DNA of 64,000 bases, taken from the NCBI GenBank assembly GCA_052327205.1, contig CM126208.1, positions 36,270,001 through 36,334,000 on the forward strand. The letters run 5' to 3'. The stretch comes from Somniosus microcephalus. Its lineage: Eukaryota. Positions 1,682 through 27,809 of the stretch are shown here, piece after piece (position 1 is the first letter of the stretch; every line of letters begins with the position of its first letter). Under the pieces are notes generated by a model that ran no database searches, had not been told where the DNA came from, and was given only the letters and a program-made list of their open reading frames with translations. A program made the translations under genes and the position numbers.

Positions 1682-1872
1682 TGTAGTGTATGTACTTTGC
1701 AGAAGGAACTATATTCTGCAGCCCCTGTATACTGCAGTACCAGTAGTGACCACCCCTGTATATAAGCCTGTGTAGTAACATTTGCATAGTAGTTCCAGGT
1801 TGCCTCCATTCAGTAAAGACCTGTTATAACCAACTCCTGCAGTCCGTGTCTCAATTATACATGGACATAATA
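1682..1872 (+). repeat. 5' LTR of nested Gypsy
   Basis: Direct repeat of 6641-6831; TG...TA termini; internal TATATAA and AGTAAA. Confidence 0.95.
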
Positions 1873-1873
1873 C

Positions 1874-1883
1874 TGGCGACGAG
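1874..1883 (+). promoter_or_regulatory. Primer binding site, tRNA-Ser(GCT)-like
   Basis: TGGCGACGAG just after the LTR, complementary to the tRNA-Ser 3' end CUCGUCGCCA. Confidence 0.75.
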
Positions 1884-2476
1884 CAGATACGAACTTACCT
1901 ACAGTCTGCACCACCTCATGGGGATCCATCCCTGAAGCGAAGTTATCAGAGGTCGAGGCCAGAAGGAAGAAAGAAACAGAAGAAACGGGCGTCGACCGTG
2001 GACATCCGCCTCTGAGTCAGCGGAGTTGAAGATTTGCAGGAGAGGCTGTCGAGAGCGGGGCTTGGTTATCCTGTCGATGGTGCTTCAGCTAATCGGGCTG
2101 GTGGCAGGTAGTACACTGATCCTTCCTCGGCTGCGGCAGTCTAGAGCTCGAGCGGGTGGCTTTGCAACGGGGCCGAGCAGCGTTGTCGGGAAGAGGAGAG
2201 AGAGAGAGGGTGGAGCACACAGGGCGCGGCCGGTGCTACGAAGCCGGGCAGTGTACAGACCCGAGAAGAGGGAGGCAAGAGTCCGCAGGGTTGTTCCAAC
2301 AACGGGGAAATAATAAAAATTAAATGCGCAGAAAGCCGCGAGGAGCTGCAGTTTGCCACGGGAACCGTGGAGAGCGGCGTTAGCAGCAGCGCGGGGGGAA
2401 GTGCGCGAAGACCATAGGGCGACGCCATCAAGGCATAAAACGCCAGCAACAGCGCTGGCAACAGCGGAGAAGACAG

Positions 2477-2582
2477 AAAGCGCGGGAGGCGCCATCTTAA
2501 TCCAGCGGGGAAGAAGGCAAAGCGCGGGAGGCGCCATTTTGTTAAATCGGGGAAGAAGGCAAAGCGCGGGAGGCGCCATTTT
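2477..2582 (+). repeat. 42-bp tandem repeat (about 2.5 copies) in Gypsy leader
   Basis: aaagcgcgggaggcgccat(c/t)tt...ggggaagaaggc repeated; each unit has CGCCATNTT. Confidence 0.85.
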
Positions 2583-2593
2583 AGATTTCCAAG

Positions 2594-3358
2594 ATGCCGA
2601 AGACTGGCAATATCACTGCCTTCGATAATGCAATAGAAGACTGGACCACGTATGTGGAAAGAGTCGAGGTATATTGCGAGGCAAACAAAGTAGCCGATGA
2701 GAAAAAGGCATCGGTACTGCTAAACTTAATGGGCGCAAGAACGTACGGCCTATTGCGGGACCTGATTACCCCAGCCAAACCGAAGGCGAAGAGTTTTAAC
2801 GAAATTGTTGCTATCCTACAGGCACACCTAAATCCTACACCGCTGCTGATAGCAGAAAGATTTAAATTCCACAGGAGAAATCAGCATAAAGATGAGAGCA
2901 ATGCTGATTACCTTACGGAACTACGCAAGCTATCAAAGCACTGCCAGTTCGGAGCAGGACTGGCAGATACCTTACGGGACAAATTTGTCTGTGGACTCCT
3001 GAGTGAAGGAACCCAGAAGAGGTTACTCTCAGAGAAAGAGCTGACGCTAGATAAGGCTTTCAGTGTGGCAGTATCGTACGAAGCAGCAGCAAGGGGAGCT
3101 GCGGAAATACAGCAAAAGCCACAGGAATACGGCACCCACGAAATGACACGGGGATTTGCAAAATGTTATCGCTGCGGCAGAACAACCCATGACCAGAAGG
3201 ACTGCTGGTCCAAGGACAAAATATGCAGGCAATGCGGAAAGATGGGACACATTGCACGAGTTTGCAGGTCTGGGAAGAAGACCGATGACAACAAAATGGC
3301 TACTAAGGAACCGTACAGGAAAGTACAAAAGATGACGGACAGTAGTTCCGAAGAGTAG
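2594..3358 (+). CDS. gag: Gag with two CCHC zinc knuckles
   Basis: CYRCGRTTHDQKDC and CRQCGKMGHIARVC; LRDKFVCGL; Mag-type N-terminus. Confidence 0.9.
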   Translation: MPKTGNITAFDNAIEDWTTYVERVEVYCEANKVADEKKASVLLNLMGARTYGLLRDLITPAKPKAKSFNEIVAILQAHLNPTPLLIAERFKFHRRNQHKDESNADYLTELRKLSKHCQFGAGLADTLRDKFVCGLLSEGTQKRLLSEKELTLDKAFSVAVSYEAAARGAAEIQQKPQEYGTHEMTRGFAKCYRCGRTTHDQKDCWSKDKICRQCGKMGHIARVCRSGKKTDDNKMATKEPYRKVQKMTDSSSEE

Positions 3359-6300
3359 ATGAGCGATAGTGAATCCAGGAACAAGAGACTAAGCTGTCTC
3401 AAACTTCACAACGTAATCGCAAAAGAGGATCACCAAACCATTTGGGTCACCCTCACGATAGCAGGGTCCCAAGTCAAAATGGAATTGGATACAGGATCAG
3501 CTCTAACCGTCATGAATCGACGAGACTACGAGCGGCTATTCTCACACATACCCTTGAAAGAGACATCCATTGTCTTGAAGACGTATACGGGGCAAAAAGT
3601 ATACCCCAGAGGAAAAATAAGGGTGCCTGTCGAATACAACGGCAAGGAAAGACAGAAATTGTATCTGTACATACTGCAAGATGGTGGACCACCGTTATTG
3701 GGACGTGAATGGATCAGAAAGATAAGTTTAGACTGGCACTCCATTCAGGCACTGACGGTGGCTGGTAAAAAGGATGACGACGTCACTCCTGGACGATTGT
3801 CAACAATCTTAGCTAACGCCAAAGAGGTATTTCAACAAGAACTGGGAACTCTTAAAGGCATAACCGCCTCGATAAAAATAGAAGAGAATGCAATTCCTAA
3901 GTTTTTCAAAGCAAGACCGGTACCATATGCAATTCGCCCAGCCGTCGAGGCAGAGCTGGAGAATCTGGAGAATGCAGGCGTGTTATCTAAGGTAGACTGG
4001 AGCGAGTGGGCGACACCCATCGTTCCTGTCATGAAGAAAACGTTAAACAATAAGTCTGAGGAGCCAAGGAAGGTTCGCATCTGTGGGGACTTCAAGGTGA
4101 CGGTGAACCCAGTCCTTCACACAGTACAATATCCTCTTCCAAGGATAGAAGATATCTTCGCCTCACTATCTGGAGGGAAGCGTTTTACAAAAATTGACCT
4201 AGCACAAGCGTATTTGCAGATGGAGGTTGAAGAATCCTCTAGGAAGTATCTCACGATAAACACTCACAAAGGTCTTTACCAGTATAATCGACTGGTATTC
4301 GGAGTAGCATCAGCTCCGGCGATATGGCAAAGAGCGATGGAACAAGTCCTGCAAGGAATTCCGGGGACTCAGTGTTACTTGGACGACATCCTAGTGACAG
4401 GTGATGATGACAGTGAACACCTTGCCAACCTAGAGCAGGTGCTCACTAGACTATGTGAACATGGGCTACGGGCCAATCGCCCCAAGTGCGAGTTTTTTAA
4501 GAAACAGATATCGTATTGTGGCCACGTGATTGATGAAGAGGGGTTACATAAGTCCCCTGACAAAATTGAAGCGGTAGTTAAGGCTCCAGTGCCTGAAAAT
4601 GTGTCGCAACTAAGGTCATTCCTCGGATTGGTGAATTACTACCATAAGCTTTTGCCGAATTTGTCCACAATTCTGCACCCACTGAACGCCCTACTACAAA
4701 CGAGAGTAGCATGGAAATGGAGCGATGAATGTAAGTGGGCCTTTCAGAAGAGTAAGGACCTAATCACTTCAAGAGAAGTATTGGCTCACTACAACCCATC
4801 ACTACCAATAAGACTGGCGTGTGATGCGTCTCCCTACGGCATTGGGGCGGTACTGTCACATAAATTACTTGATGGTTCAGAGAGGCCGATAGCTTTTGCG
4901 TCACGCTCGTTAACTTCAGCCCAGCGTAACTACGCCCAGATTGACAGAGAGACCCTCAGCCTGGTGTGGGGGGTGGAGAAGTTCAATCACTACCTGCACG
5001 GTCAGAAATTTACTCTACTTACTGATCATCAACCTTTTGTCTCCATTTTCAACCCTCAGAAGGGCGTACCGATAATGACAGCACAACGGCTACAGAGGTG
5101 GTCCCTTTTCCTAGGGGCACACCAATATGACATCGAGTACAAAGGAACTAAACAGCATGGGAATGCTGATGGATTGTCGCGCCTACCGTTGCCGACGGTG
5201 GAAGAAGAACTTGCAGTGGATCCAGTGGAGATATTCCACTCGACCATAGTCGAATGTCTCCCTGTGACGAATGCAAACATAGAAAAGGAAACACGAAATG
5301 ACCCGACACTCTCCTGGGTCTATGATTTAACGGTGAAGGGATGGCCAGCACATGGCGAACCACTGCTGCCAGCATTCTCGCCGAGAAGAGAACAGCTGTC
5401 AGTGTGCAGAGGAACCTTGATGTGTGGATCCAGAGTAGTAATTCCACCCAAATTGAAGGATAGAGTGCTCAATGAGCTTCATGAGGGTCATCTGGGAGGG
5501 GTAAAAATGAAGAACTTAGCCAAAGCGTTTGTGTGGTGGCCGGGAATCGATAGAGAAATCGAAGAGATGACCAAGAGCTGTACAGGATGCCAGAAGGTCC
5601 AAAACGCCCCACCACAAGCCCCTCTACATCCATGGGAGTGGCCCTCATCTCCATGGCAAAGGGTGCACATTGATTTTGCTGGTCCATTTTTGGACTCGAT
5701 GTTTTTAATTGCGGTGGATGCACATTCAAAATGGCCAGAGGTAATAAAAATGTCCTCAACCACCACAGAAAAAACTATCACAGTCTTACGAACCATATTC
5801 ACAAGGAATGGGCTGCCTGAACAGATTTGCTCCGACAATGGACCACAGTTTGTGTCTGAAGAGTTCCGGAGGTTCTTAAAGAACAATGGTGTTAAGCATT
5901 ACACATCCGCCCCATATCATCCAGCCACTAATGGATTGGCCGAGAGGTTCGTTCAAACATTCAAGAAGGCTATCAAGGCAATGTGTAATGAAGATATACC
6001 CCTACAGCACAAGGTGGATAACTTTTTGTTTGCCTACCGGAATGCGACACATGCGGTTACCAACCAAACTCCAGCCATGATGTTCTTCAATCGAAGACTA
6101 CGATGCCGCTTGGATTTGGTTAAGCCAAACATCAGAAGAGATGTGGAGAACAGGCAGTTTCAGAATATGAATGAAAGGCCGACCAGGAGTTTTAAGATAG
6201 GTCAACCAGTTTTGGCCCGGGGCTACCGCACAGAGAAATGGCAGCCAGGAACGATCTGTACACGGCAAGGACCTCTAATGTATACTGTGGACGTTGGAGA

Positions 6301-6628
6301 GAGTATTGTAAGACGCCATGCTGACCAGATTCTAGAGTCACTGGGAAACGTCAACTCCACACCACGATCTGATACACCTGGCGATGAAACCGAAGTACCA
6401 ATTGCATCTACCTCAGAATCGGTGATATTGGAAGCAGACAAACCAAACAACGACATCGATCCCGACTCAACGTTGCCAGAAGAACCTGATACCCCAAAGA
6501 GGCGTTATCCAGCCAGAATCAGGAAGCCTCCTCAAAGAAATTGCTTAACTTCAACTAATGTATCTAGCAACTGTAATTGTGAATATGTTATTTCATTGTT
6601 AATCGAATGTTATGTACTGTTTAGCTAA
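3359..6628 (+). CDS. pol: Pol polyprotein (protease, RT, RNase H, integrase)
   Basis: LDTGS, YLDD, DASPYG, HEGHLG...CTGC, VHIDFAG, SDNG, NGLAER; 1089 aa open. Confidence 0.95.
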   Translation: MSDSESRNKRLSCLKLHNVIAKEDHQTIWVTLTIAGSQVKMELDTGSALTVMNRRDYERLFSHIPLKETSIVLKTYTGQKVYPRGKIRVPVEYNGKERQKLYLYILQDGGPPLLGREWIRKISLDWHSIQALTVAGKKDDDVTPGRLSTILANAKEVFQQELGTLKGITASIKIEENAIPKFFKARPVPYAIRPAVEAELENLENAGVLSKVDWSEWATPIVPVMKKTLNNKSEEPRKVRICGDFKVTVNPVLHTVQYPLPRIEDIFASLSGGKRFTKIDLAQAYLQMEVEESSRKYLTINTHKGLYQYNRLVFGVASAPAIWQRAMEQVLQGIPGTQCYLDDILVTGDDDSEHLANLEQVLTRLCEHGLRANRPKCEFFKKQISYCGHVIDEEGLHKSPDKIEAVVKAPVPENVSQLRSFLGLVNYYHKLLPNLSTILHPLNALLQTRVAWKWSDECKWAFQKSKDLITSREVLAHYNPSLPIRLACDASPYGIGAVLSHKLLDGSERPIAFASRSLTSAQRNYAQIDRETLSLVWGVEKFNHYLHGQKFTLLTDHQPFVSIFNPQKGVPIMTAQRLQRWSLFLGAHQYDIEYKGTKQHGNADGLSRLPLPTVEEELAVDPVEIFHSTIVECLPVTNANIEKETRNDPTLSWVYDLTVKGWPAHGEPLLPAFSPRREQLSVCRGTLMCGSRVVIPPKLKDRVLNELHEGHLGGVKMKNLAKAFVWWPGIDREIEEMTKSCTGCQKVQNAPPQAPLHPWEWPSSPWQRVHIDFAGPFLDSMFLIAVDAHSKWPEVIKMSSTTTEKTITVLRTIFTRNGLPEQICSDNGPQFVSEEFRRFLKNNGVKHYTSAPYHPATNGLAERFVQTFKKAIKAMCNEDIPLQHKVDNFLFAYRNATHAVTNQTPAMMFFNRRLRCRLDLVKPNIRRDVENRQFQNMNERPTRSFKIGQPVLARGYRTEKWQPGTICTRQGPLMYTVDVGESIVRRHADQILESLGNVNSTPRSDTPGDETEVPIASTSESVILEADKPNNDIDPDSTLPEEPDTPKRRYPARIRKPPQRNCLTSTNVSSNCNCEYVISLLIECYVLFS

Positions 6629-6640
6629 AAGGGGAGGAGT

Positions 6641-6831
6641 TGTAGTGTATGTACTTTGCAGACGGAACTATATTCTGCAGCCCCTGTATACTGCAGTACC
6701 AGTAGTGACCACCCCTGTATATAAGCCTGTGTAGTAACATTTGCATAGTAGTTCCAGGTTGCCTCCATTCAGTAAAGACCTGTTATAACCAACTCCTGCA
6801 GTCCGTGTCTCAATTATACACGGACATAATA
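6641..6831 (+). repeat. 3' LTR of nested Gypsy
   Basis: Preceded by PPT 6627-6639, followed by TSD GGGAA. Confidence 0.95.
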
Positions 6832-7240
6832 GGGAAGGCCTCTACCCATTTGGTGAACACATCCACCAGTACTAGGCAGTACTTATAGCCTAACTGGGCG
6901 GTGGGCAGGGGCCCGATGTAGCCGACCTGTATCGACTGCCATGGTTCCTCTACCCTCCTGCTGTGTCCCATAGGTACCTTGCTTTTGTGGGGGTCAGGGT
7001 TATTAGCAGCACACACAAGACAGCCGGCACAGAACTCGCGGACATCTTCCCTGAGTCCCGGCCACCATCCCGCCTGTTCTACCCGCTGCCAGGTGGTCTC
7101 AGGCCCGGAGTGTCCCGCTCCTGGCCCCTCATGGGCCAGTTGAAAGAATTCCCTCCAGTGCTTTTGCGGCACAAACCACTGTTCCCCCCCCGGAACAGCA
7201 TGCCCTCTTTGATGGAGAGGGTTGCTGTGCTGTATGGACC
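6832..7240 (-). pseudogene. Integrase N-terminus (HHCC and start of core) of host element
   Basis: AHEGPGAGH...WWPGL...CAGCLVCA; PWQSIQVGYIGPLP...VDVFTKWVEAFP, cut by the nested Gypsy. Confidence 0.85.
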
Positions 7241-7242
7241 CT

Positions 7243-8388
7243 CTACTCCTTTCCCTCAGTTACTGCACTGAGGACCGCCTTGAGGACGGGGTCTTGGGCT
7301 TGGACCGTCTTAAGATACGGGGCTAAAGCTACCCCTGCACTCCCTTGGGTCCCGTCCCTACCTCTGACTGCCGCCATGGGTCTGGACCCATAGGGGTCCC
7401 AGACAGTGCCTGTGCGGGCACCCTCCTTGGCGAGCATGTCAGCCTGCTGGTTGCCTTGACTGCGGGGTTCTGTGGAGGAATGGGCTTTCACCTTGTGGAT
7501 GAAAACCTCCCCTGCCTCACCCACTGTGGCCAGGATCTTTTCCAGCAGGGGTTTTACTGTGAGGGGTCTCCCGTCGGCAGAGGTGTATCCGCAGCGGGAC
7601 CAAATGGCCAGGTACTCCGTACACGAATTGCACGTTAACATACTGTCTGAGCAAATCGTGTATGGGGTAGGGAAGATTTCGGGGTGTGTAACGACGTACA
7701 CTACCGTGGACAGTTCAGCCTGCTCGGCGCTCATGTTGCTGGGGAGCTTAATCGCCAGGGAAATGTTTGCCGCAGGGTCATAAACTCCACACCCCGTGAG
7801 ACGCTCACCAGCAGATACCGTGCTGGAACCGTCTACATAGATCTCGTGGCCCGTGGGATGTATCCCGGCCCGTAAACCTATGTTCACTTCCCAAACCCCT
7901 TCAATGGAACACCGGTGGGCTGTTCCAGGATATACCAGGTTGGCTGCGAGCTTTGGCTCGCAGAGACCCTTCACCTTAAGATCCATCTCTGAGAGGAGGA
8001 GGGTCCAGCGAGCAAAGCGGGCACTTCTCACTGTTCCATCCTTGATCCTCCCATCCAGAAGCATCTGGGTGGGTGTGTGATGGGTGAGGAGGGTGATGGG
8101 AGAGGTGCCTGTGAAGATCAGTGATCTCTTCACAGCCCAATGTGTGGCCAAGAGGTGCCTCTCACAATTGGAGTAGCTCCTTTCCACATCTGTGAGTATC
8201 CTAAAGGAGTAGACCACCGGCCTCAGCCGGCCATGCCGCTCTTGGAGCAGCACAGCACTCAGGCTATCCCCGCTGGCTGCTACCTCCAGGAAAAACTCTT
8301 TCCCCCCATCTATGGCCCCGAAAGCTGGTGCGGTCTGCAAGTCTTTCTTGAGCCTGACGAACGCTGCCTGGCAACCCTCATCCCAAAG
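7243..8388 (-). pseudogene. Degenerate tether RNase H plus second retroviral-type RNase H
   Basis: First domain FFLEVAAS...LSAVLLQ...YSNCERHLLA...TLLTHH; second domain YVDGSS...SAEQAEL...ICSDS...KVKAHS...GNQQADMLAK. Confidence 0.85.
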
Positions 8389-9200
8389 CTACTCCACTCC
8401 CTTGTGTAGGAGTCGGAGCAGAAGGGCTGCTGTGGCTGCATAGTCCTCAATAAAGTCTCTGCAGTACCCGGTTAGCCCTAGAAACGACTTCACACCCGTG
8501 ACTGTGTTGGGGATCGGTAACTCCTGTACCGCCTCCCTCCTAGCCTTGTCTATGGCCCTTTCTCCAGCGCGGACGGCCAGACCTAGGAATTTCACCTCCT
8601 GCTGGCCGATCTGCGCTTTCTTGGAGTTTACTTTGAAACCCTTCTGCCCAAGCAGCTCCAGCAGTTTGGCCAATAGTGGGCCATGCTCCTCTTTCGAATC
8701 AGTGAACAGGAGCAGGTCATCCACATATTGTACCAACTGTCTGGGCTGACTAAAATCCCTTAAACTGTTTGCCATACACTGATGGAAAATGCTGGGGCTG
8801 TTGTGGAAGCCCTGCGGCAAGCAGTTCCACGTGTACTGTTGCCCTTTAAACGTAAAGGCAAACTTGTACTGATCCTCCCTCCTTAAAGGGATGGACCAAA
8901 ACCTGTTGGAAATATCCAGCACCATGAACGTGGTCGCGGACGCTGGGATACTTCCTATCAGGTCGGCAACTGCTGCTACCGTGGGTGCACAGGCTGGGAT
9001 GTTACTATTGAGCACCCGATAGTCCACCGTGGCTCTCCAGGAATTGTCCGGCTTTCTAACTGGCCACAATGGAGAGTTTACGTGGGTGGCTATCGGTCTC
9101 AGAACTCCCTGCTGTACTAACGAGGACATGGCTGCTTCCATGTCTGGCTCTGCTTCCCTGGGGAAGTTATACTGTTTCTGTGGTCGGGCCATGGGGTCCC
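8389..9200 (-). pseudogene. pol: Reverse transcriptase of host element
   Basis: NSPLWPVRKPD, VDYR.LN, LPQGFHNSP, QYVDDLL, FLGLTGYCR; premature TAG at 8389-8391. Confidence 0.92.
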
Positions 9201-9203
9201 CGT

Positions 9204-9794
9204 CTACGCTGACCTCAAACCTTTGACCCTCCCACAGTCGTGTTTGTGTGTGGCAAATGTGGCCAGGTGGGCCTGCACAAATGCCTGGAACTCCTGTGGG
9301 GTGTTACTGACCATGAGCTCGAGGTTATCACCCTCTTTGGGCTTCATGGTGCATAGGGTCCCATTCCCTTCCTTTCCCAGGATTACTACTATCTCGCCGT
9401 CCTTTCCTTTACTTGCCCCCCATAGGCAATGATTCCTCAAATCTACTAGGATCCCGTGGCCTACAATGAAGTCGGCCCCCAGGACCCCTCTTCCACCCTC
9501 CACTTCCCATTTCATCAGGACACAGGTCCACTTGGAGCGGAGCGGTCCTAACCGAATGGCGAGCGGGATGGAAAATGAGCCAGCCTGTTCTTTGCCTGTG
9601 AACCCCGACAGACTGTATGGGACCCCGCTAGAGAGAGGTGAGGTGGTGGGGTTAGCTGAGTAGACCACAGTGCATGATGCTCCCGTGTCCAACAGATAGG
9701 TCCCCTTCACCCTTTCCACCTCCATCTCCACGAGGGGTCTTTTCCATTCATCATACCGGAGAGAACACAGGTAAACAGGCTGCGCTGGCTCTAG
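9204..9794 (-). pseudogene. pro: Aspartic protease of host element
   Basis: YLLDTGAS and VLGADF; in frame with gag after a single TGA; frameshift before RT. Confidence 0.85.
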
Positions 9795-11522
9795 TCATGG
9801 CTTTGGGTTGGATGGGGCTGACGGGGTCAGAGCACCGGTAGTGGCTGCTACTCTCCCATGGCCAGTCAATAAGGACCTCATGGTGTCCAAAAATGACTCG
9901 ACCGCTGCGGGAGGGATTCCCGCCTCTGCCTTTTGGGCTGGGGCCGTGGAATTCATTCCCTTGTTGTCTTTCCAAGGGTTTTTGCACTCCTTCCGCCAAT
10001 GACCATCCTTCCTACACCCATAACAATTCGTCTCTGTGTTGGGGGGGTTATTCCCTTCCTGGTGCCACTCTTTCCTACCCGGTCCGGGTTTTACCTCATG
10101 CACCTTCCCCTTGGGTGGGTGTGCATCGGTTCCCCTACCGTTTTTATAGGCTAGAGTCAACTGTCTAATCACCGTAAGTTCTGTGGTCTGGGGGTTCTTG
10201 GGGTCGAACCAGACTTCTGCCTTGGCCCGGACCTGTGGCAAGCTGTTCGCCACCAGGCAACGGAGCCAATGGGCCAGTGGATCCCCGTTCAGGAACACCC
10301 GGTTCGGCGTCCCCGGACAGGCCCTCCGGTACACCGGCCATAACCGGTCCACGAAAGCCTGTGGGGTTTCCCCTGCGAGCTGGACCGTCTTCTCCACACG
10401 GGAGAAAGGACTTCCCTCATTCACCCCCATGATCTCTAGAACCGCATCCCTGAGCTCCTCATGCCCGCTCTGCCCCCTCTTACACTCGTCAGAGAGGGAT
10501 TGGAGGAGACTACTCTCCAGGGAGAATAGCAGCATTTTGGCCTCCTCAGCGTCATCGCAGTCATTGACGCCGGCTGCCTGCTCTATGTCCCTGAAGTGGA
10601 TCGAGGGGTCTCCCTTTTCGGAGAGCTTCGGGATATGTTTCACCATAGCCCTAAGCTGTTGGGTGCTATAGGGTAATACAAACTGGTTTTGGAGGGGTCC
10701 CTCATCATCGCCATTGACGGGTGGGCCAAACCCCTGATGCCGGGCTGGGCACATCGGTCCCGGCTCCGACCTCTCTGGCGGGGGTTGCTCCACCTCCGCT
10801 TCCACCTCTGGCTCCACCCCCCCTTGCTGCCAAACCTCGCTGAAACTTAGCGCTACGGGTGGTGGTCGTGAGACCTCCTGTCCCTCAACCGGGTCATCCC
10901 TGGGCACTACCGGTGATGTTTGAACTGTCCTCCCCTCGTTCCCCATAAAATCCGCCTGACCTGCCTTCGGGCTTATAAGGCATACCATGCCTTTTGCCTT
11001 CCTGAGGGCCCGGCTCAGATTTTCTATCCGCTCCTTGTAGGGGTCGTGGTCTGCCTCCTTAAACCCCTGTTCACTCGCTAGTTTATAAGCTGCCTTTACC
11101 TCCTGTACTTTCTCTTCCTGTTCCCTAACTTGCCTTGCCAAGCGAGCGTTCTTTTCCCGCAACCTTAACTCATTTACCTTGGCTTTGCTGACTTGGCACT
11201 GTAGGTATTCCAACTGGGCCTTGTGTTCTCCCACTAAATACAACCTCTCCTGATTCAGGGCCTGCAATGCTACTATTAACTTCTCCCCTGCTAGGGCCTT
11301 ATCCTGGATCTCCAGGGCTGACTCCTTTAACTCGGCTGCCTGTGCTGCAACGAGCCTGTCCAAAAGCTGGACCTGCTTTTTGAAACACATCAGCCAGACT
11401 GCCTTCTCTAAGGACTTCTTGTGTTCCTTTCCCTCTGTCCACTTAGCTGCTGCATCTACCAGACGCCCAGCCCTTAAGAGAGTGGTGATCCACTTCTTCG
11501 TGATATTCACCTTGCCAAACAC
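9795..11522 (-). CDS. gag: Gag-like protein with N-terminal coiled coil and one CCHC knuckle
   Basis: 575-aa ORF; heptad-rich N-terminal third; MHR-like QLAGETPQAFVDRL; CYGCRKDGHWRKEC; start codon uncertain. Confidence 0.85.
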   Translation of the reverse strand: MFGKVNITKKWITTLLRAGRLVDAAAKWTEGKEHKKSLEKAVWLMCFKKQVQLLDRLVAAQAAELKESALEIQDKALAGEKLIVALQALNQERLYLVGEHKAQLEYLQCQVSKAKVNELRLREKNARLARQVREQEEKVQEVKAAYKLASEQGFKEADHDPYKERIENLSRALRKAKGMVCLISPKAGQADFMGNEGRTVQTSPVVPRDDPVEGQEVSRPPPVALSFSEVWQQGGVEPEVEAEVEQPPPERSEPGPMCPARHQGFGPPVNGDDEGPLQNQFVLPYSTQQLRAMVKHIPKLSEKGDPSIHFRDIEQAAGVNDCDDAEEAKMLLFSLESSLLQSLSDECKRGQSGHEELRDAVLEIMGVNEGSPFSRVEKTVQLAGETPQAFVDRLWPVYRRACPGTPNRVFLNGDPLAHWLRCLVANSLPQVRAKAEVWFDPKNPQTTELTVIRQLTLAYKNGRGTDAHPPKGKVHEVKPGPGRKEWHQEGNNPPNTETNCYGCRKDGHWRKECKNPWKDNKGMNSTAPAQKAEAGIPPAAVESFLDTMRSLLTGHGRVAATTGALTPSAPSNPKP

Positions 11523-11595
11523 ATAATCAGAAATCCTTCCCTCATGGTTTGCTCATCCGAACCATTGTCTACTGTATCACAACCCTGTTGCCGGT

Positions 11596-11613
11596 GTCCT
11601 GCTGCGGTCGCCA
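11596..11613 (-). promoter_or_regulatory. Primer binding site, tRNA-Arg
   Basis: TGGCGACCGCAGCAGGAC, 17/18 complementary to the vertebrate tRNA-Arg(TCG) 3' end GUCCUGCCGCGGUCGCCA as recalled. Confidence 0.75.
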
Positions 11614-11618
11614 TTTTC

Positions 11619-12966
11619 TGTAGGGGGTGGCGTGTGCCCAGTCAGTTATGCCCCTGACTGCCTTTGAGCGGTTCGAGTCGCTCCCACACCCCTGGGTTCT
11701 CGACTCCGGACTTAGGTACAGGCGGCGATACAGAAAACGAGTAGACAAGTGGTTTGGTGTAAGAAAACCAAGATTTTATTAAAACAGAAATAAAAATTAC
11801 AAACACTGAAAAGTCACTATGTAGCTACATTTATCAAAAGAATATATTCAAATGGGAATGGGGAACACATGGCACATCGAGGGAACAACACACATTAATA
11901 AAATCCCTTAACCCTTATCCCACCTATAATACCTAACTAGATTAAGCTAAGAGGGGCCAGGAATTCATGCTCACCAAGTCAAAATCTGCTGAGTTATAAC
12001 GGTTGTGGGGTTTGGGGTTTGCTCTTTGTGCTCTCTGGGGCCTGCCGTCATCACGTGGTCTCAGGGCGCTGCAAGGGCGTTGTCCTGGTAAAGTACCCCG
12101 AGATTAAAGTCTTTGCTTGGGTACTTTACCTCGCAGGGATGATGGTTCTTCTTCTTCAGGTGGCAGCTGAACTTTGCATGAAGATAGTCATAGGTCAGCT
12201 GGATTGAAGGCCCGATTATTCGAAGAGTTCTTCAATCTTCTTCCAAATCATCTCGTCTTCATCTCATCTCATCTCATCTCGTCTCGTCTCATCTCGTCCG
12301 GCCTGGTCTGCCTGTGTTTGCCTGGCGCTGTGCCGGGCGTCCCTGATGGATTTGGGGAAGACACGGGCGGTGGCCAGGTAACAAGCGCAGGAGGAAGAGA
12401 GAGTGAGCAACGTGGCTACCAATGGGCCTATAATTATACGCCCGTTGAAAGCCCTTATCTGCGTGCCAAATCAGGTCAGTCTATTGTCCAACTTTTGGCG
12501 TGCTGTTTTAAATGATTATACCAATCTAAGTTAACTGGCTTTAGATGGCCGTTTATCGCACCTGATGGCCCCGATGTCCGGGTTGTATTGTCATTAATGC
12601 ATTTTAATCGGCCTGTCCAGCCTTGGTGGTTCCCTTGAGCTGTTTCCAATTATTTATGCAGACAAACTAATGGCCTTATGCTTAGGCCTAACTGGGCTGA
12701 TCTGTTTTGATCTGACGCAATGCATATTCAATGTTTGCCTAGCTGTCTGGCTTTTCAAACGCAAAGTCCGTTTCACAGAAATGCATTTTAAGTTTCAATT
12801 TCCCAAAGCTGCCTGCTTGTGCTGCAGAGTCCATGCTTTTAAAATCTTACAGGCTTTTGGTCACGAGGTGCGGACGCCATCTTTTGGGTACCCTTTTTAA
12901 ATTGTCCATACAGGGTCCCTTTTATTAATAACCTTGGGTTAATGTGGGAATTTTGAGAACCTTACA
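11619..12966 (-). repeat. 5' LTR (about 1.35 kb) of host element
   Basis: TGTAAG...CCTACA termini on minus strand, 5 nt from the PBS; AATAAA at 11780-11775; TATA-like 12438-12429; outer boundary inferred without the second LTR. Confidence 0.7.
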
Positions 12967-21162: not shown

Positions 21163-22654
21163 GTATTTAGTCTAGATCTCCATGGTAAGGGTCCACAGCA
21201 GCCTGATCCTTGAGTACTCTTTTTAAAAATGCATCCCCAGTATTTTTATTTATGTATCTTAAAAAGTTATTTAGAAGTGAAAGTGTTATGCGAGTATGGA
21301 GCAGCAGCGTGTGGTACTTACTCTGCCAAGTTCCTAAACTGCAGGGCAGTGCCAAACAGAAGCCAGCTGCTACCCCTACAGCTAGAGGGAATATCGGAGG
21401 AACGTTGCCAATGGACTGCTCTCACACAACCCTTGGCAGCCAACTAACAGCAGCTTTGGCAGGGCCCCACGAACAGACTGATTGCCCTTTGTTCTCAGAC
21501 AATGGGGGGGTCCGAGAAACTTCTCTTAACTCCTACGCAGCCTTGGGGAAGGAATCAGCGAAGGTAAGATACTGGGAGTAAATAAATGAATGTGTGATCC
21601 TATTGGGATCTAATTGGGAGGACAGCCAACATAAGTTAAAAAGTTTACATGATAGGTTGATTTCAAATATATTTTTAAATAAACTATTCCTTTAAAATTA
21701 TGTTAGTTCTCAATGATGGCTTAGTTTGTATATAAAAGTAAAACTTAGCCATACAACATTCAAATTCCATTTCATCTCCCCTTGCCTTCTCTTCTTTGAA
21801 TTCACAGCCCTCCCTAAACCATTCCCTCCATACAAATGCTCCTACCCATATTCAAGGCCACCCCCTTGACTTTGCCATCTCCTGTGGCCTCTCTACTTTC
21901 ATGGTCTTGATCATTGCATCACAACATTACAACAGTGACTATGGCCAGAATTTTGCGGGAGGTCAGTGGGCGGGATTGGTGGCGGGTCAGGTGGTAAATT
22001 TGATATTTTTGACAGTGGGTCGGGAACCCGCTGGCAACCCGCCGCCATGCGCCTTTCGCGATGTCGGGCCTGTCAGCAGTGAGCAGACCCGACAGGCAGC
22101 AGCGAGTGACCCAATTCAGGTGATTAATGGCTTGTTTAGAGCTACTTAAGAATGATTTTCAGCTCACCTTTTGCATTTGACAGCTCACCCACGGGGTCCA
22201 CGCTGGTCGGGAGTTCAGTGGTCATTGAACAGCTGTTGAGTTTCTTATGATCATTAATAAATAGACATTCTTATTATGAACACAGCTAGCTTTTGCTAGA
22301 CACTTTTATTGAGCACATGTGGACTAGATACAGTATCTGTAGAGGCTTCCATCTTGACTGCTGCCTTGTGGGTAGCCTAGTGCCTCATGGGTAATGTAGT
22401 CTTAATATACATACAACTGGGTACTGTAGTCTTATACATACAGCTATATACAGCTCTACGGCTCCACCTAGTGTCCACTATAGAATGACATGTTATTGAT
22501 CATTACATCCCCCTTTCTTTGAGGTTTAACAAAATCAATATCAATCAACTTTCAAGAAAACAATAAAGATAATATCAGTAACACTTTTGTTAGTGCTCTA
22601 TAAACATAAACATTTTCAAAACAGTCAACACATTTTCAAAGCTTTACATTGTAC

Positions 22655-24154
22655 TCAAAGATTAAGTCTATCAGGCTTTTTTACTTCACGTGTGGATCTT
22701 CTCAACACGGGTAAGTCTGATGTGTCTTCATGAGATTGTTCTGGCGGTGAATGACAAGATGCAGTTGCGGCATTGTCATCAATCTGGTCTTGAATAGTCT
22801 CTTGTGTTTTTAGGAGGGAACGGCGGTTCCTCCTGAGAATCTGTCCTTCCTCAGTTCTAACAGTGTATGACCTTGGTCCTACTTCCTCACGAACTGTAGC
22901 TTTCCTGTTCCATGCATCTGGATCCTCAATCCTGACAACATCATCCCTTGTCAATGGTTTTAGAGTTTTGGATGATTTGTCATAGTATGATTTCTGTTTC
23001 AGCTTTAACAGTTGAAGTCTCTGTCTCAGTTCCTCACTTTGCTGTTCTTTTGCACAGCAGGGTAGCGTGGTGCGCAACTTGCGACCCATTAGTAGTTCAG
23101 CAGGTGAAGAACCACAGTCTAAAGGTGAGGCTCGGTAGCTCAGCAGGGCGAGATAAGGATCAGACTTGCTTTCTGTCGCTTTCTTCAGTAGCTGCTTGAG
23201 AACTTGAACACCTTTCTCTGCCTTACCATTTGACTGAGCATACAAAGGACTGGATGTGATGTGCTGAAAGTCATAATGTGCTGCAAATTGTTGCCACTCC
23301 TTACAGTTGAAGCACGGACCATTGTCGCTAACAGCAATCCTGGGAATTCCATGTCTGGCAAAGATGGATTTCACATGCATTATGATACTGCTTGCTGTGG
23401 TGCTTGAGAGCAGCGCCATCTCAGGATAGTTAGAATAGTAGTCAATCACTATTAGATAGTCTTTACCATTTAAATGAAAAAGGTCCATACCAACCTTTTG
23501 CCATGGTGCTGTTGGTATGTCAGCTACTATCATTGGTTCCTTTGCTTGTTTGTTTTGGTGTTTCTGACATGTCTCACATTTGCCTATCATGTTCTCAATG
23601 TCCTTATTTATGCCAGGCCAATAAACAGTGTCTCTTGCCCTCCTTTTGCATTTTCCAATTCCGAGGTGTCCCTCATGAATCCTTTTGAGCATGTCTTGAC
23701 GTAGAGCCTGTGGAATGACTATTCTGTTCTGTTTTAGTAATAGTCCACTTACGACACTCAATTCTGACCTTATGTGAAAATATTTTGGACAGGAACCTTT
23801 TGGCCAACCATGATGAATGTTCTCTATTACTGTTTGTAATACTGTATCTTTTACTGTTTCTTCTGCTATTTGCTTTGATTTTGTGTCTGACACGGGCAGC
23901 GCAGCAGTGACCATACTCACATGAACATCCACGTCTTCTTCAGTAGAGCTCACATGACTCATTGTGGGTGCTCGGGATAGTGCATCTGCTAACACTATGT
24001 ATTTGCCTGGTGTGTAGATCAGTTCAAAGTCATATCTTTGCAGCTTCATCATGAGTCGTTGAATCCTTGGAGACATCTCATTCAGGTTCTTTTTTATGAT
24101 GGCAACCAGTGGGCTGTGGTCTGTCTCAACTGTGAAGTCCATATATGTAGCCAT
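22655..24154 (-). pseudogene. pol: RNase H end and integrase of second Gypsy
   Basis: ETDHSPL, HEGHLG..C, WQKVGMDLF, SDNGP, NGKAEK, ends KPDRLNL; separated from upstream ORF by stop and frameshift. Confidence 0.9.
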
Positions 24155-24206
24155 GAAACTTTTCTAGTCCAACTACCAAGCCTAGACATTCCTTTTCAAT
24201 CTGGGC

Positions 24207-26584
24207 TTATCGACACTCAGTATCAGTCATAGACCTGGAGGCATAGGCAACAGGCTTCCAATCTTCACCCTCTGCTTGTAACAAGACCGCACCTAGGCCA
24301 TCTTTTGATGCATCCGTTGACACTTTGATTCTTTTTGTTGGGTCAAAGAAGGTGAGTACAGGTGTGGTTGTCAGCACTGTTATGAGGTTTATCCACTCTT
24401 GTTCATGTCTTTCTGTCCATGCGAACTCATTTGTTTTATGTAGCAGGTCTCGCAGACAGGCTGTCTTGGCTGACAAGTTAGGAATGAACTTTCCAATGAA
24501 GTTTATCATCCCCATGGTGCGTAGCACTCCTTTTTTGTCAGTGGGTCGGGGCATTTTGAGTATGGCGTTTACTTTTTCCATATCTGACTCTATTCCTTTA
24601 CCAGATAGATTATCTCCTAGGAAAGTGACTTCCTGGACGCCAAACTGACACTTGGCTTTGTTGAGCTTCAGTCCATTCCGGCGTATGCTCTGTAGCACTT
24701 TAGTCAGTCTCTCATTGTGTTCTTTCAGTGTGGAGCCCCAGATGATGATGTCATCAACATAGACCCGAACTCCTTCCAGACCTTCAATTATGTGTTCCAT
24801 CGCTCTATGAAAGATTTCAGATGCAGATATTATCCCGAAAGGCATTCTGAGGAAACAATACCTGCCAAATGGTGTGTTGAAGGTACAGTATTTGGTGCTC
24901 TCTTCATCCAGTTTTAGTTGCCAAAATCCTTGTGAGGCATCGAGCTTTGTAAAGTATCTGGCACCTGACATTTCACTGGTGATTTCTTCTCGCTTGGGAA
25001 TCTGGTAGTGTTCACGTTTTATGTTTGCATTGAAGTCCTTTGGATCCATGCATATTCTTAGATCATTGTTCTTTTTCTTTACACATACCATGGAGTTAAC
25101 CCAGTCTGTTGGCTCTTCGACTTTCCTGATGACTCCTAGTGTGGTCATTCTGTCCAGTTCATTCTTGAGCCGGTCACGCAGGGGTGCTGGAACTCTTCGT
25201 GGAGCATGTACCATTGGCTGAGCATCCTCCTTTAGCTGGATCTTGTAAGTGAATGGTAGAACTCCAAATCCTTTGAACACATCCTGGAAATTATTCACTA
25301 CAGAATCCACCGAGTCATCTGGTCTGCTTATGGCACAGTTTATACGGTAGACTCTCTTGACCAGTTCTAAGTCCTCACAAGCTTTGTCGCCCAGTAGTGA
25401 ATCAAGTCTTTCAGCCACAACAGAAAACATGAGATGATGCACTTTGTCTTTGACTGTCACTTTGAGTCTGCATACACCTAAGCTATCTATTTTCTGTCCA
25501 TTATAGTCCTTCAGTAGTACTGACTTTTTCTGTATTTTTGGCTTTTCTTTCATATTGTTAATGTCACTCATACTGATTAAGTTTGCTTTTGCCCCAGTGT
25601 CTAGTTTCAAGGTAACTAATGCTCCATTTACCTGCAGTGGGATCATCCATTTGTCCTCTTTTACTGCATTAACTTTATGTTCAGCATTGTCCATTTCTGA
25701 GGGCTGCACATTTTCTGTATCCTTTTTGATATTGTCACATGACACCATTCGTACAAAAAATATCTCACTTAAATCAGTGTCCTCAATTACATTAACTCGT
25801 TGCCCTTTCTTAGTTTGTACTTTTGAAAAGCATTGTTTGGCAAAGTGATTCTTTCCATTACACTTTGTGCACATTTTTCCAAACGCTGGGCATTGTCTTA
25901 ACTGGTGTTTGTAACCACAGCGTTTACAATTAAAAATGTCATCCTCCGATTGCTTTTCATTTCTGTTCTGCCCACGTTTCTTCCCCTTGTAGGACACAGC
26001 ACCGACAGCAGCATTATCACTCATTACAATCGCATCATTATTGATTTCACTGAAAGTCTTCGCGTGCTTTCGAGCTAGCTTGCTGGCTTGGCATATTTTC
26101 ACTGCATTTTCCAAATTTAGTTCGGTTTCTCTCAACAGACGTTCCCTGACTTTTTTATCATGAATACCAAACACAATCTGGTCACGAAGCATGGATGCTT
26201 TGAGCTCAGAGAAATTACATGTCTGTGCTTTCAGTTTCAGATCAGTTATAAAGCTATCAAAAGTCTCATTTTGCTGCTGTGTCCGAGAACAGAAGATGTA
26301 TCTTTCATAGGTCTCATTCTTTTTGGGAGAGCAATGTGCATCAAATTTTTTTAGCACATCTTCTAATTTTTCTCTGTTCTCCTCTGGATTAAATACAAAT
26401 GTATTAAATACCTCTATCGCCTGTGGGCCTGCAACCGTAAGCAGCAACGCTATCTTCCTTGCGTCTGGCTTCGTACCGAATCCGATGGCTGCAATGTAGA
26501 GTTCGAATTGTTGTTTAAGAGTCTGCCAATTGTAGTCGATGTTTCCTGTGAGTTTCAAATGCTCTGGCAGCTTCAAATTCTCCA
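24207..26584 (-). pseudogene. gag-pol: Gag-protease-RT-RNase H of second Gypsy
   Basis: CKRCG..H..C / CTKCNGKNHFAKQC, LDTGA, YVDD, TDASKDG; premature stop after DTECR. Confidence 0.9.
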
Positions 26585-27809
26585 TGTCGCTTTTCACAAT
26601 TTTCAGCAGATCTTCACCATCCTGGTACCATCTTATGTTCATTAATAAATAGACATTCTTATTTTGAACACAGCTAGCTTTTGCTAGACACTTTTATTGA
26701 GCACATGTGGACTAGGTACAGTATCTGTAGAGGCTTCCATCTTGACTGCTGCCTTGTGGGTAGCCTAGTGCCTCATGGGTAATGTAGTCTTAATATACAT
26801 ACAGCTGGGTAGTGTAGTCTTACACATACAGCTATATACAGCTCTACGGCTCCACCTAGTGTCCACTATAGAATGACATGTTATTGATCATTACAGAGTT
26901 GACAGCTTCGATAGTAAAGTAAAAGCTCCCACCTTACAGAGATATCTTCCCTCAGCCATAAGCTGTTCCTCACTGCATTTCCACAACAGATTCACCATGT
27001 TGCAAGTCTTTACACAAGTCTCCATCCAGTCTGACCTCATTACCTCTCCCACCATTGACAGACCGCTTCCGTCATCTCTACTTCACCTGCCATCTACTCC
27101 ATCAGCACCGGTGCCCTTGAAACTCTCTCACCTTGGTCCTCAGAATCCCACCACGATCAGCCCCAGCACCAGGCACACCAGCAGCAACAACAACACCAAC
27201 CTTCTCCGCAATCAACTGATGCTGCACAGGACAGAGGGTATCAGCACCCAACCACATTGCTGCCTGGGAGGCCAGGGATGGCCTCACCATGGCCAGGTTT
27301 ACTTCACTTGACGCTGTACACCCTGGCTGCCACATGATGCGCCAGGTTGGCACCACCCCACACCAACACCATAAAGCATCCCAGCAATGACCAAGCCATT
27401 CCTTTCACACTCACCGCCATTGCGGGGTACCGTTATGTCTCACCATTCACTGCAACTCACTAAGCCATTTCCAAAGGTGCATACAAATTTGTCCAAGAAC
27501 ACAAAGTGTTGAAAATAAAGTTTTCAATGTTTGACACCACATTAACAGAAACTTTGCATGAACATTGGATAAAACACGTAAGTACCTACCCTTGTGTGCT
27601 GTTAGTTGGTATGATTGCACTAGGATGAGGGTGAGTGTGAGGGGTGGCTAGTGAGATGGGGATGTGATAATATATATAGAGAGGGATGGGTGGATGTCTA
27701 AGGTAAGTTGATGTGAGTAAGGCTGTGCAGGATTTGGGTAGGGAAGGCAGAGTGACGGGGACGTGATGAGAAGCACAGCAAGATGAGGTAGAATGTGGCT
27801 TTGTACCAA

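What the first reader, a model, noticed from the sequence alone, without database searches (positions are those of the whole stretch)
9731..9800. gag-pol joined by a UGA-CUAG readthrough signal
Gag ends CCA TGA CTA G and the same frame continues for 21 open codons (LEPAQPVYLCSLRYDEWKRPL) into the protease. UGA-CUAG is an established leaky-stop context in alphaviruses and mammalian readthrough genes. Gamma/epsilon retroviruses use UAG suppression instead. Inference: programmed UGA readthrough makes Gag-Pol here.
Basis: partly seen in the sequence, partly recalled or inferred. Interest (0 to 1): 0.7.

Follow-up and report, generated by a model that had tools for sequence, protein, structure and literature searches.

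The report
Alphavirus-style leaky stop in shark retrovirus
A large family of ancient retroviruses in a shark-like genome keeps one UGA stop, followed by CUA and a predicted long RNA hairpin, between its coat and enzyme genes, so the enzymes are likely made when ribosomes occasionally read through that stop, using a signal type known from alphaviruses rather than from retroviruses.

Summary
Confirmed and extended. On the minus strand gag ends at TGA (9797-9795), followed by CTAG, in frame with the protease. The element is an env-bearing endogenous retrovirus of a basal, SnRV-grade lineage. The stop is ancestral: 3692 of 3981 genomic sites holding the downstream 20-mer have TGA. In loci picked only by protease similarity (56-81% identity), 54 of 58 have TGA exactly 36 codons before the catalytic Asp. 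The conserved core is UGA-CUA; the G varies. The first 100-150 nt fold no better than shuffles, but +1..+238 forms one long stem-loop (z -3.9) with compensatory changes across lineages, like the alphavirus type II signal. The one amplified TGG clade seen has lost capsid and pol. Five of 24 published lokiretrovirus consensuses also show gag-UGA-CUA-pol, unremarked in that paper. Readthrough is inferred, not measured. Retroviral readthrough is known, and UGA junctions are noted in SSSV, ZFERV and RMEV; I found no report of UGA-CUA plus extended stem-loop in a retrovirus. This scan noted UGA-CUAG gag-pol junctions before in copia and DIRS elements on other DNA, not in this family.

The parts
11619..12966 (-). 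5' LTR (1348 nt, TG...CA)
   Evidence: 95.1% identical over 1350 columns to the 3' LTR at G000:C7:36259420-36260761; 4-bp target-site duplication; polypurine tract before the 3' LTR
11596..11613 (-). Primer-binding site complementary to the 3' end of tRNA-Arg(UCG)
   Evidence: The complement occurs at tRNA 3' ends in the genome; ARAGORN calls two of four fetched loci tRNA-Arg(tcg), one an unassigned tRNA that Rfam confirms as tRNA, one no tRNA
9798..11552 (-). gag frame: coiled-coil-like N-terminal part, one CCHC knuckle; its 5' end is disturbed in this copy
   Evidence: no Pfam hit; one homolog, 59% identical, ending at the matching position, with a weak zf-CCHC hit
9795..9797 (-). UGA stop between gag and pro-pol; the inferred readthrough codon
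9791..9794 (-). CUAG after the stop; CUA is the conserved core
   Evidence: CTA in 49 of 54 junctions, CTG in 4, CCA in 1; CTA in 12 of 12 cluster representatives against 14 of 128 other Leu codons
9578..9786 (-). Predicted extended stem-loop, about 210 nt; base pairs +12..+32 with +198..+220, after an 8-nt spacer
   Evidence: z -3.9, 0 of 200 shuffles; 11 of 11 lineages more stable than shuffles; 18 pairs with changes on both sides against 11.8 shuffled. Function untested
9204..9794 (-). Protease frame (catalytic Asp codon 9689-9687); frame broken before RT in this copy
   Evidence: RVP E 0.0022, below the curated cut-off; codons 16-45 align without gaps to HIV-1 protease 5-34
8389..9303 (-). 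Reverse transcriptase (LPQGFHNSP, QYVDD), ending in a premature stop
   Evidence: RVT_1 E 5e-35
7243..8388 (-). Tether (degenerate RNase H) plus second RNase H: the retroviral dual layout
   Evidence: RT_RNaseH_2, RT_RNaseH and RNase_H hits
6832..7259 (-). Integrase, first part; it continues at 1681 and below
   Evidence: Integrase_H2C2 E 1e-17; other copies run from 6832 to 1681 without the insert
1682..6831 (+). Unrelated nested Gypsy element that interrupts the integrase
   Evidence: 191-nt LTRs 99% identical; pol domains

Best explanation
The TGA at 9797-9795 is the ancestral, in-frame stop between gag and pro-pol of a large endogenous retrovirus family, and Gag-Pro-Pol is likely made by occasional ribosomal readthrough of it, promoted by the CUA after the stop and probably by a predicted 210-nt stem-loop that starts 8 nt further on. 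Shown: the stop, its frame, its conservation across lineages, the fixed CUA codon, protein-level selection on the codons right behind the stop. Predicted: the stem-loop. Inferred from alphavirus and mammalian experiments: that most ribosomes stop to give Gag and a few percent insert an amino acid and continue. That the stem-loop raises readthrough is about 0.6 likely; it may serve another purpose.
For: Stop conserved in 3692 of 3981 sites, and in 54 of 58 loci chosen by protease similarity alone, always 36 codons before the catalytic Asp; 20 of 20 mapped loci chosen by a gag homolog (10 of 30 had no protease hit). CTA in 12 of 12 cluster representatives, while other Leu columns vary. Codons 1-23 behind the stop have pN/pS 0.26 and hold no in-frame AUG before codon 24 in 11 of 11 lineages, so they are translated from upstream. 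Codons 16-45 match HIV-1 protease 5-34. Fold z -3.9; best of 10 windows for stability against shuffles and best of 16 for double changes that keep pairing, 0.60 against 0.40-0.58; covariation 0.197 against 0.148, 0 of 500 shuffles. The amplified TGG clade lacks about 870 nt of gag, and its match to pol ends at about +181 (9 of 9 checked). UGA-CUA(G) is an experimentally shown readthrough context (PMC4132726) and type II signals have 3' stems (PMC3159437).
Against: No Gag-Pol protein, ribosome profile or reporter result exists here. Folds up to 148 nt are no better than shuffles. The covariation control ignores relatedness, and a pol window at +835 scores nearly as well (0.57); two other windows are also stable (-12.8 and -12.9 against -18.6 kcal/mol). 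Three of the 14 pol-bearing copies folded (L247, L257, L262) keep only the lower part of the base stem and one (L238) pairs it in another register. About 4% of sites carry TGG. All lineages come from one genome and share ancestry, so they are not fully independent. PMC4132726 found only 4 of 23 human UGA-CUAG genes with a coding signature, so the motif alone proves little.
Confidence: 0.87

Rival explanations
1. Pol is made from a separate spliced mRNA, as in foamy viruses (recalled), and the stop is a plain terminator; the AG of CTAG could be the splice acceptor.
For: The lineage is basal and its integrase hits foamy virus integrase best among solved structures. RNA coverage is thin and comes from both strands, so rare joints could be missed.
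Against: The AG is not conserved: CTAA, CTAC and CTGA occur in 36 of 54 junctions. No splice joint was listed among 5023 and 4791 reads laid on 6832-12966. Splicing would not require gag and pol to stay in frame with a fixed spacing.
Confidence: 0.05
2. The TGA is a nonsense mutation in one defective master copy that helper viruses multiplied.
For: The window copy is itself broken; the 40 top DNA hits are 94-96% alike, a single burst; pol-less derivatives are common.
Against: The same TGA-CT(A/G) stands in about 11 lineages whose first 100 pol codons differ by up to 47%, including four loci whose pol frame is open for 1439 codons from the stop.
Confidence: 0.02
3. A-to-I editing turns UGA into UGG in part of the RNA, which opens the frame.
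For: TGG is the commonest alternative: 180 sites with TG-B, 89 of the first 100 listed being TGG, against 18 CGA. The stop lies beside a long predicted duplex.
Against: 29 of 43 TGG copies in the tree form one clade (support 1.0). The 14 scattered ones scale to about 1.3% of sites, equal to the background A>G rate of 1.32%. No change at the stop was among the 40 best-supported rows of the RNA lay, but 259 rows were not shown.
Confidence: 0.02
4. Ribosomes stop and restart at the conserved Met, codon 24 behind the stop.
For: Met24 is present in 11 of 11 lineages.
Against: A protein starting there would lack the stretch matching HIV-1 protease residues 1-12. Codons 1-23 are under protein-level selection. 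An out-of-frame AUG comes first in 11 of 11 lineages.
Confidence: 0.02

Closest known systems
Type II readthrough signal of alphaviruses (SINV, VEEV): UGA-CUA/CGG plus extended 3' stem-loop (PMC3159437, passages read; PMC13517186, passages read)
   Same: UGA followed by CUA; stem predicted to start at +12, the position listed for VEEV; long-range base stem; gates a polymerase.
   Different: Here it sits in a retrovirus between gag and protease; the stem-loop is longer (about 210 nt against 126 in VEEV and 177 in SINV) and untested.
Gammaretrovirus (MoMLV) Gag-Pol readthrough (PMC13517186, PMC3159437; passages read)
   Same: In-frame stop after the CCHC knuckle and before the protease DTG; 8-nt spacer before a structure.
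   Different: [quoted passage not shown] The RT does not group with gamma-like sequences.
Aquatic retroviruses with UGA at the junction: SSSV (UGAAGA), ZFERV (UGACGA), RMEV (UGAAGU); SnRV has UAGGGC (PMC13517186 section 4.1.2, read whole)
   Same: Single in-frame stop between gag and pol in fish or amphibian retroviruses; readthrough assumed, not verified.
   Different: None has CUA; no cis-element is described for them.
Lokiretroviruses (PMC7947760; parts 1-2 of 4 and supplement passages read)
   Same: Five published consensuses (Loki-Ofa, Cne, Pyo, Sau: TGA-CTAG; Bsp: TGA-CTAA) have gag-stop-pol in one frame, read by eye; coiled-coil before capsid, tether plus second RNase H.
   Different: RT motifs differ (PFGY.NSPA there, LPQGFHNSP here) and the tree separates them. 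At least eight Loki consensuses are annotated as fused gag-pol.
SnRV-like / clade Huo ERVs, including elephant shark CmiERV lineage I (PMC4422223, part 1 of 2 read; PMC6001957, passages)
   Same: Basal retrovirus in a cartilaginous-fish-like host; RT motifs like SnRV; coiled coil and one zinc finger in Gag, as described for SnRV in PMC2717909 (passages).
   Different: Only 32% identical to SnRV pol and not its sister in my trees; nearest named relatives are coelacanth and frog proteins. CmiERV sequences were not compared.

Membership tests
Retroviridae-type ERV | LTRs, PBS, PPT, target-site duplication | tested here: met
Retroviridae-type ERV | PR-RT-tether-RNase H-IN order with dual RNase H | tested here: met
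Retroviridae-type ERV | env gene | tested here: inconclusive
   Broken frames after IN with an RQRR site, a following helical stretch and a late hydrophobic segment; no convincing Pfam hit; fold pLDDT 37
Retroviridae-type ERV | RT groups with retroviruses, not Gypsy | tested here: met
   Inside the retrovirus plus Loki group, support 0.986 and 98.9
Lokiretrovirus | RT in the Loki clade with Loki motifs | tested here: not met
Lokiretrovirus | Env like paramyxovirus fusion protein (PF00523); IN near CGIN1 | tested here: inconclusive
   No PF00523 hit on three env pieces; IN tree not built; NCBI names four close pol hits NYNRIN-like
SnRV-like clade (Huo) | RT monophyletic with SnRV | tested here: inconclusive
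   Basal grade next to SnRV and ERV-L-like rows, not sister to SnRV; no foamy or CmiERV rows were available
Type II readthrough signal | UGA followed by CUA or CGG, in frame with a downstream ORF | tested here: met
Type II readthrough signal | Conserved 3' stem-loop starting about 8-15 nt behind the stop | tested here: met
   Predicted, with moderate covariation support; not probed
Type II readthrough signal | Measured readthrough above background | not testable with these tools
   Needs a reporter assay, ribosome profiling or proteomics
Type III (gammaretroviral) signal | UAG-G plus H-type pseudoknot | tested here: not met
   The stop is UGA-C; pseudoknots were not searched for; no Rfam family matched 9450-9900

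The most novel reading that the evidence does not exclude
Deep-branching fish retroviruses make Gag-Pol with an alphavirus-type cassette, UGA-CUA plus a roughly 210-nt stem-loop, a second class of retroviral readthrough signal. The same UGA-CUA junction stands unnoticed in one group of lokiretroviruses, so this signal is either ancestral near the root of retroviruses or arose twice.
Probability: 0.55. Interest if true: 0.72.

Novelty: new variant of a known kind. Interest (0 to 1): 0.58.

Why it matters
A 2026 review states that outside gammaretroviruses retroviral readthrough is unverified and its cis-elements are unclear. This family gives a concrete, short, testable signal, with thousands of genomic copies and about 11 diverged lineages that already show which positions may change. 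It links retroviral Gag-Pol control to the type II signal of alphaviruses and vertebrate genes, and bears on how the earliest retroviruses set their Gag to Pol ratio. It would also correct annotations that start pol at arbitrary internal codons, as in the lokiretrovirus data set.

Tried and rejected
Lokiretrovirus membership: first guess, rejected on RT motifs and trees. Editing at the stop: rejected after the clade test and the background rate; only 3 TGG-picked copies passed the identity filter for the local hyper-editing check, too few to use. Short folds of 58-148 nt: z between -0.3 and +0.6. Column-shuffle z-scores (down to -9) are inflated by that control and are not relied on. Rfam: nothing meaningful. 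AlphaFold models of protease and env piece: pLDDT 33 and 37, unusable, so no fold search was run. Viral contigs: no relative. Sequencing runs: no RNA holder listed; contigs of three further coded organisms cover the junction, and partial alignments break at 9765 and 9798 in all four runs, but the variant table was cut to 40 rows, so it gives no count at the stop. Selenocysteine decoding was considered; no SECIS search was made. Earlier findings by sequence: none. The 17 'tgactag' hits in the Loki supplement are near the number chance would give; only 4 are junctions.

Full report
Observation. The minus strand reads CCA TGA CTA GAG with the TGA at 9797-9795. The 585-codon gag frame and the 196-codon protease frame are one frame. 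The window lies in a 6.4-Gb genome. That the host is a cartilaginous fish is my inference from recalled repeat types and agrees with unchecked notes of this scan.

The element. It has 1348-nt LTRs that are 95.1% identical, a 4-bp target duplication and a polypurine tract. Its primer site is complementary to tRNA-Arg(UCG). Pol has the order protease, RT, tether, second RNase H, integrase. Env-like broken frames lie beyond the window's left end; Pfam and folding did not confirm them. This copy is dead: a frame break before RT, a stop after RT and a nested Gypsy element. RT motifs resemble SnRV and not lokiretroviruses (P0017 matches the SnRV RT printed in that supplement). Trees put the family with coelacanth and frog proteins (aLRT 100) in a basal grade near SnRV and ERV-L-like rows, without resolving it (no foamy rows).

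Is the stop ancestral? Among the 29 other top DNA hits, 28 have TGA-CTAG. Genome-wide, the downstream 20-mer occurs 3981 times and TGA precedes it 3692 times. Those counts favour close copies, so I also took loci chosen by outside proteins. With a gag homolog, 20 of 20 mapped loci have TGA (10 of 30 had no protease hit). With two outside proteases, 58 of 60 loci had the motif, and 54 of 58 have TGA exactly 36 codons before the catalytic Asp; of the other four, one has a Trp codon there, two have later secondary stops and one is rearranged. Protease identity to the window is 56-81%. Four of these loci have a pol frame open for 1439 codons from the stop.

The context. Behind those 54 stops stand CTA 49 times, CTG 4 times and CCA once; the fourth base is A, G or C. 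The first codon is CTA in 12 of 12 cluster representatives, while 14 of 128 other Leu codons are CTA and other Leu columns vary. So the bases, not only the leucine, are conserved. UGA-CUA is the type II motif (PMC3159437, passages), and in four vertebrate genes the first six bases are the universally kept part (PMC4132726, passages).

Sense codons. 180 sites have TG-B, 89 of the first 100 listed being TGG; 39 sites lack the T, 18 of them CGA. I fetched 40 TGG and 40 TGA sites. In a tree of 119 copies, 29 of 43 TGG copies form one clade and 14 are scattered. The scattered share, about 1.3% of sites, equals the background A>G rate of 1.32% in 59 copies. The clade has lost about 870 nt of gag and its match to pol ends near +181 in 9 of 9 copies checked; its TGA-bearing parent lineage keeps gag and also loses the match by +181 to +218 in 6 of 6. 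The one amplified lineage seen without the stop is therefore one that no longer has a capsid or pol to balance.

Are the codons behind the stop translated? Codons 1-23 have pN/pS 0.26, as low as the protease core. The first in-frame Met is codon 24 in 11 of 11 lineages. Codons 16-45 align without gaps to HIV-1 protease 5-34, so the enzyme would begin near codon 12, upstream of that Met. RNA reads (5023 and 4791 laid, both strands, many copies) gave no splice joint; this is weak evidence.

RNA structure. Folds of 58-148 nt are ordinary. The 238-nt stretch folds into one rod, -100.8 kcal/mol, z -3.9, 0 of 200 shuffles, with a base pairing +12..+32 to +198..+220. All 11 lineages fold better than shuffles in this window, by 18.6 kcal/mol on average, the most of 10 windows scored (next 12.9; five gappy windows skipped). 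On 12 copies the window's structure is 83.5% paired, with 18 pairs changed on both sides against 11.8 in shuffles; RNAalifold finds a similar rod. Double changes keep pairing in 60% of cells, the best of 16 windows, though one distant window reaches 57%. Support is moderate: the controls ignore relatedness and four of 14 pol-bearing copies fold the base differently. VEEV's stem also starts at +12 and stimulates 10- to 14-fold.

Mechanism. Shown: stop, frame, conservation, selection on the following codons. Predicted: the stem-loop. Inferred: most ribosomes end Gag at UGA and a few percent read on to give Gag-Pro-Pol (0.87); the stem-loop stimulates this (about 0.6).

Beyond this family. In the lokiretrovirus supplement (PMC7947760; file cut when stored, line breaks can hide matches) 4 of 17 'tgactag' hits are gag-pol junctions, and a targeted look-up gave a fifth with TGA-CTAA; by eye all five run in frame into the pol homology. 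That is 5 of 24 consensuses; at least eight are annotated as fused gag-pol, and I did not examine the rest. The main text has no occurrence of stop, readthrough or frameshift.

What is known. Gamma- and epsilonretroviruses read through UAG; SSSV, ZFERV and RMEV have UGA without CUA; none outside gammaretroviruses is verified (PMC13517186, passages and section 4.1.2). No pseudoknot was found behind the WDSV or SnRV stop (PMC3835772, passages). Tca2 is a copia element with gag-UGA-pol (PMC2194720, search listing only). Searches for a retroviral UGA-CUA signal returned no such report; one search listed two papers, the review and an ilarvirus paper seen as a listing only. PMC9040795, PMC12440569, PMC2717909, PMC6001957 and PMC12193657 were seen as term passages only.

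Verdict. Real and conserved; a new variant of a known kind: retroviral Gag-Pol readthrough with an alphavirus-type signal. Interest 0.58.

Noticed in passing
L069, L074, L076, L078, L083, L095, L169, L172, L182: Derived elements keep gag, the TGA-CTAG and only about 33 nt behind it; in several the frame then runs into a sequence like the Gag coiled coil instead of protease. They could make an extended Gag by readthrough, or the stretch may be a recombination point.
   Followed up: partly
window 3356-3361 (+), nested Gypsy: Its gag ends TAG directly followed by ATG in the pol frame. Related elements in L061 and L062 have one continuous frame, so this is probably a private nonsense change.
   Followed up: partly
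G000:C8:7803417-7833603: Eight TGG-bearing junctions, mostly at about 3.65-kb spacing: a tandem array of a deleted element.
   Followed up: no
about +685 to +1030 behind the stop (RT region): A second region folds better than shuffles in 10-11 of 11 lineages and keeps double changes; possibly another RNA element.
   Followed up: no
L061 8007-9998 and 7729-8130 (-): Env-like frames with a weak Ig-domain hit (E 0.02) ahead of an RQRR site; three further insertions lie between env and the 3' LTR.
   Followed up: partly
G000:C35:0.8-4.3 Mb: Large tandem arrays of tRNA genes at about 1.6-kb period; 452 matches to one tRNA-Arg 3' motif genome-wide. The copy in L269 is 91 nt, longer than a standard tRNA.
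   Followed up: no
window 22243-26895 (-): Another Gypsy element with 265-nt LTRs 98% identical and a pol split into two frames.
   Followed up: no
L062 and L064: A second copy also has a related Gypsy element inserted in the same integrase region, at a different point.
   Followed up: no
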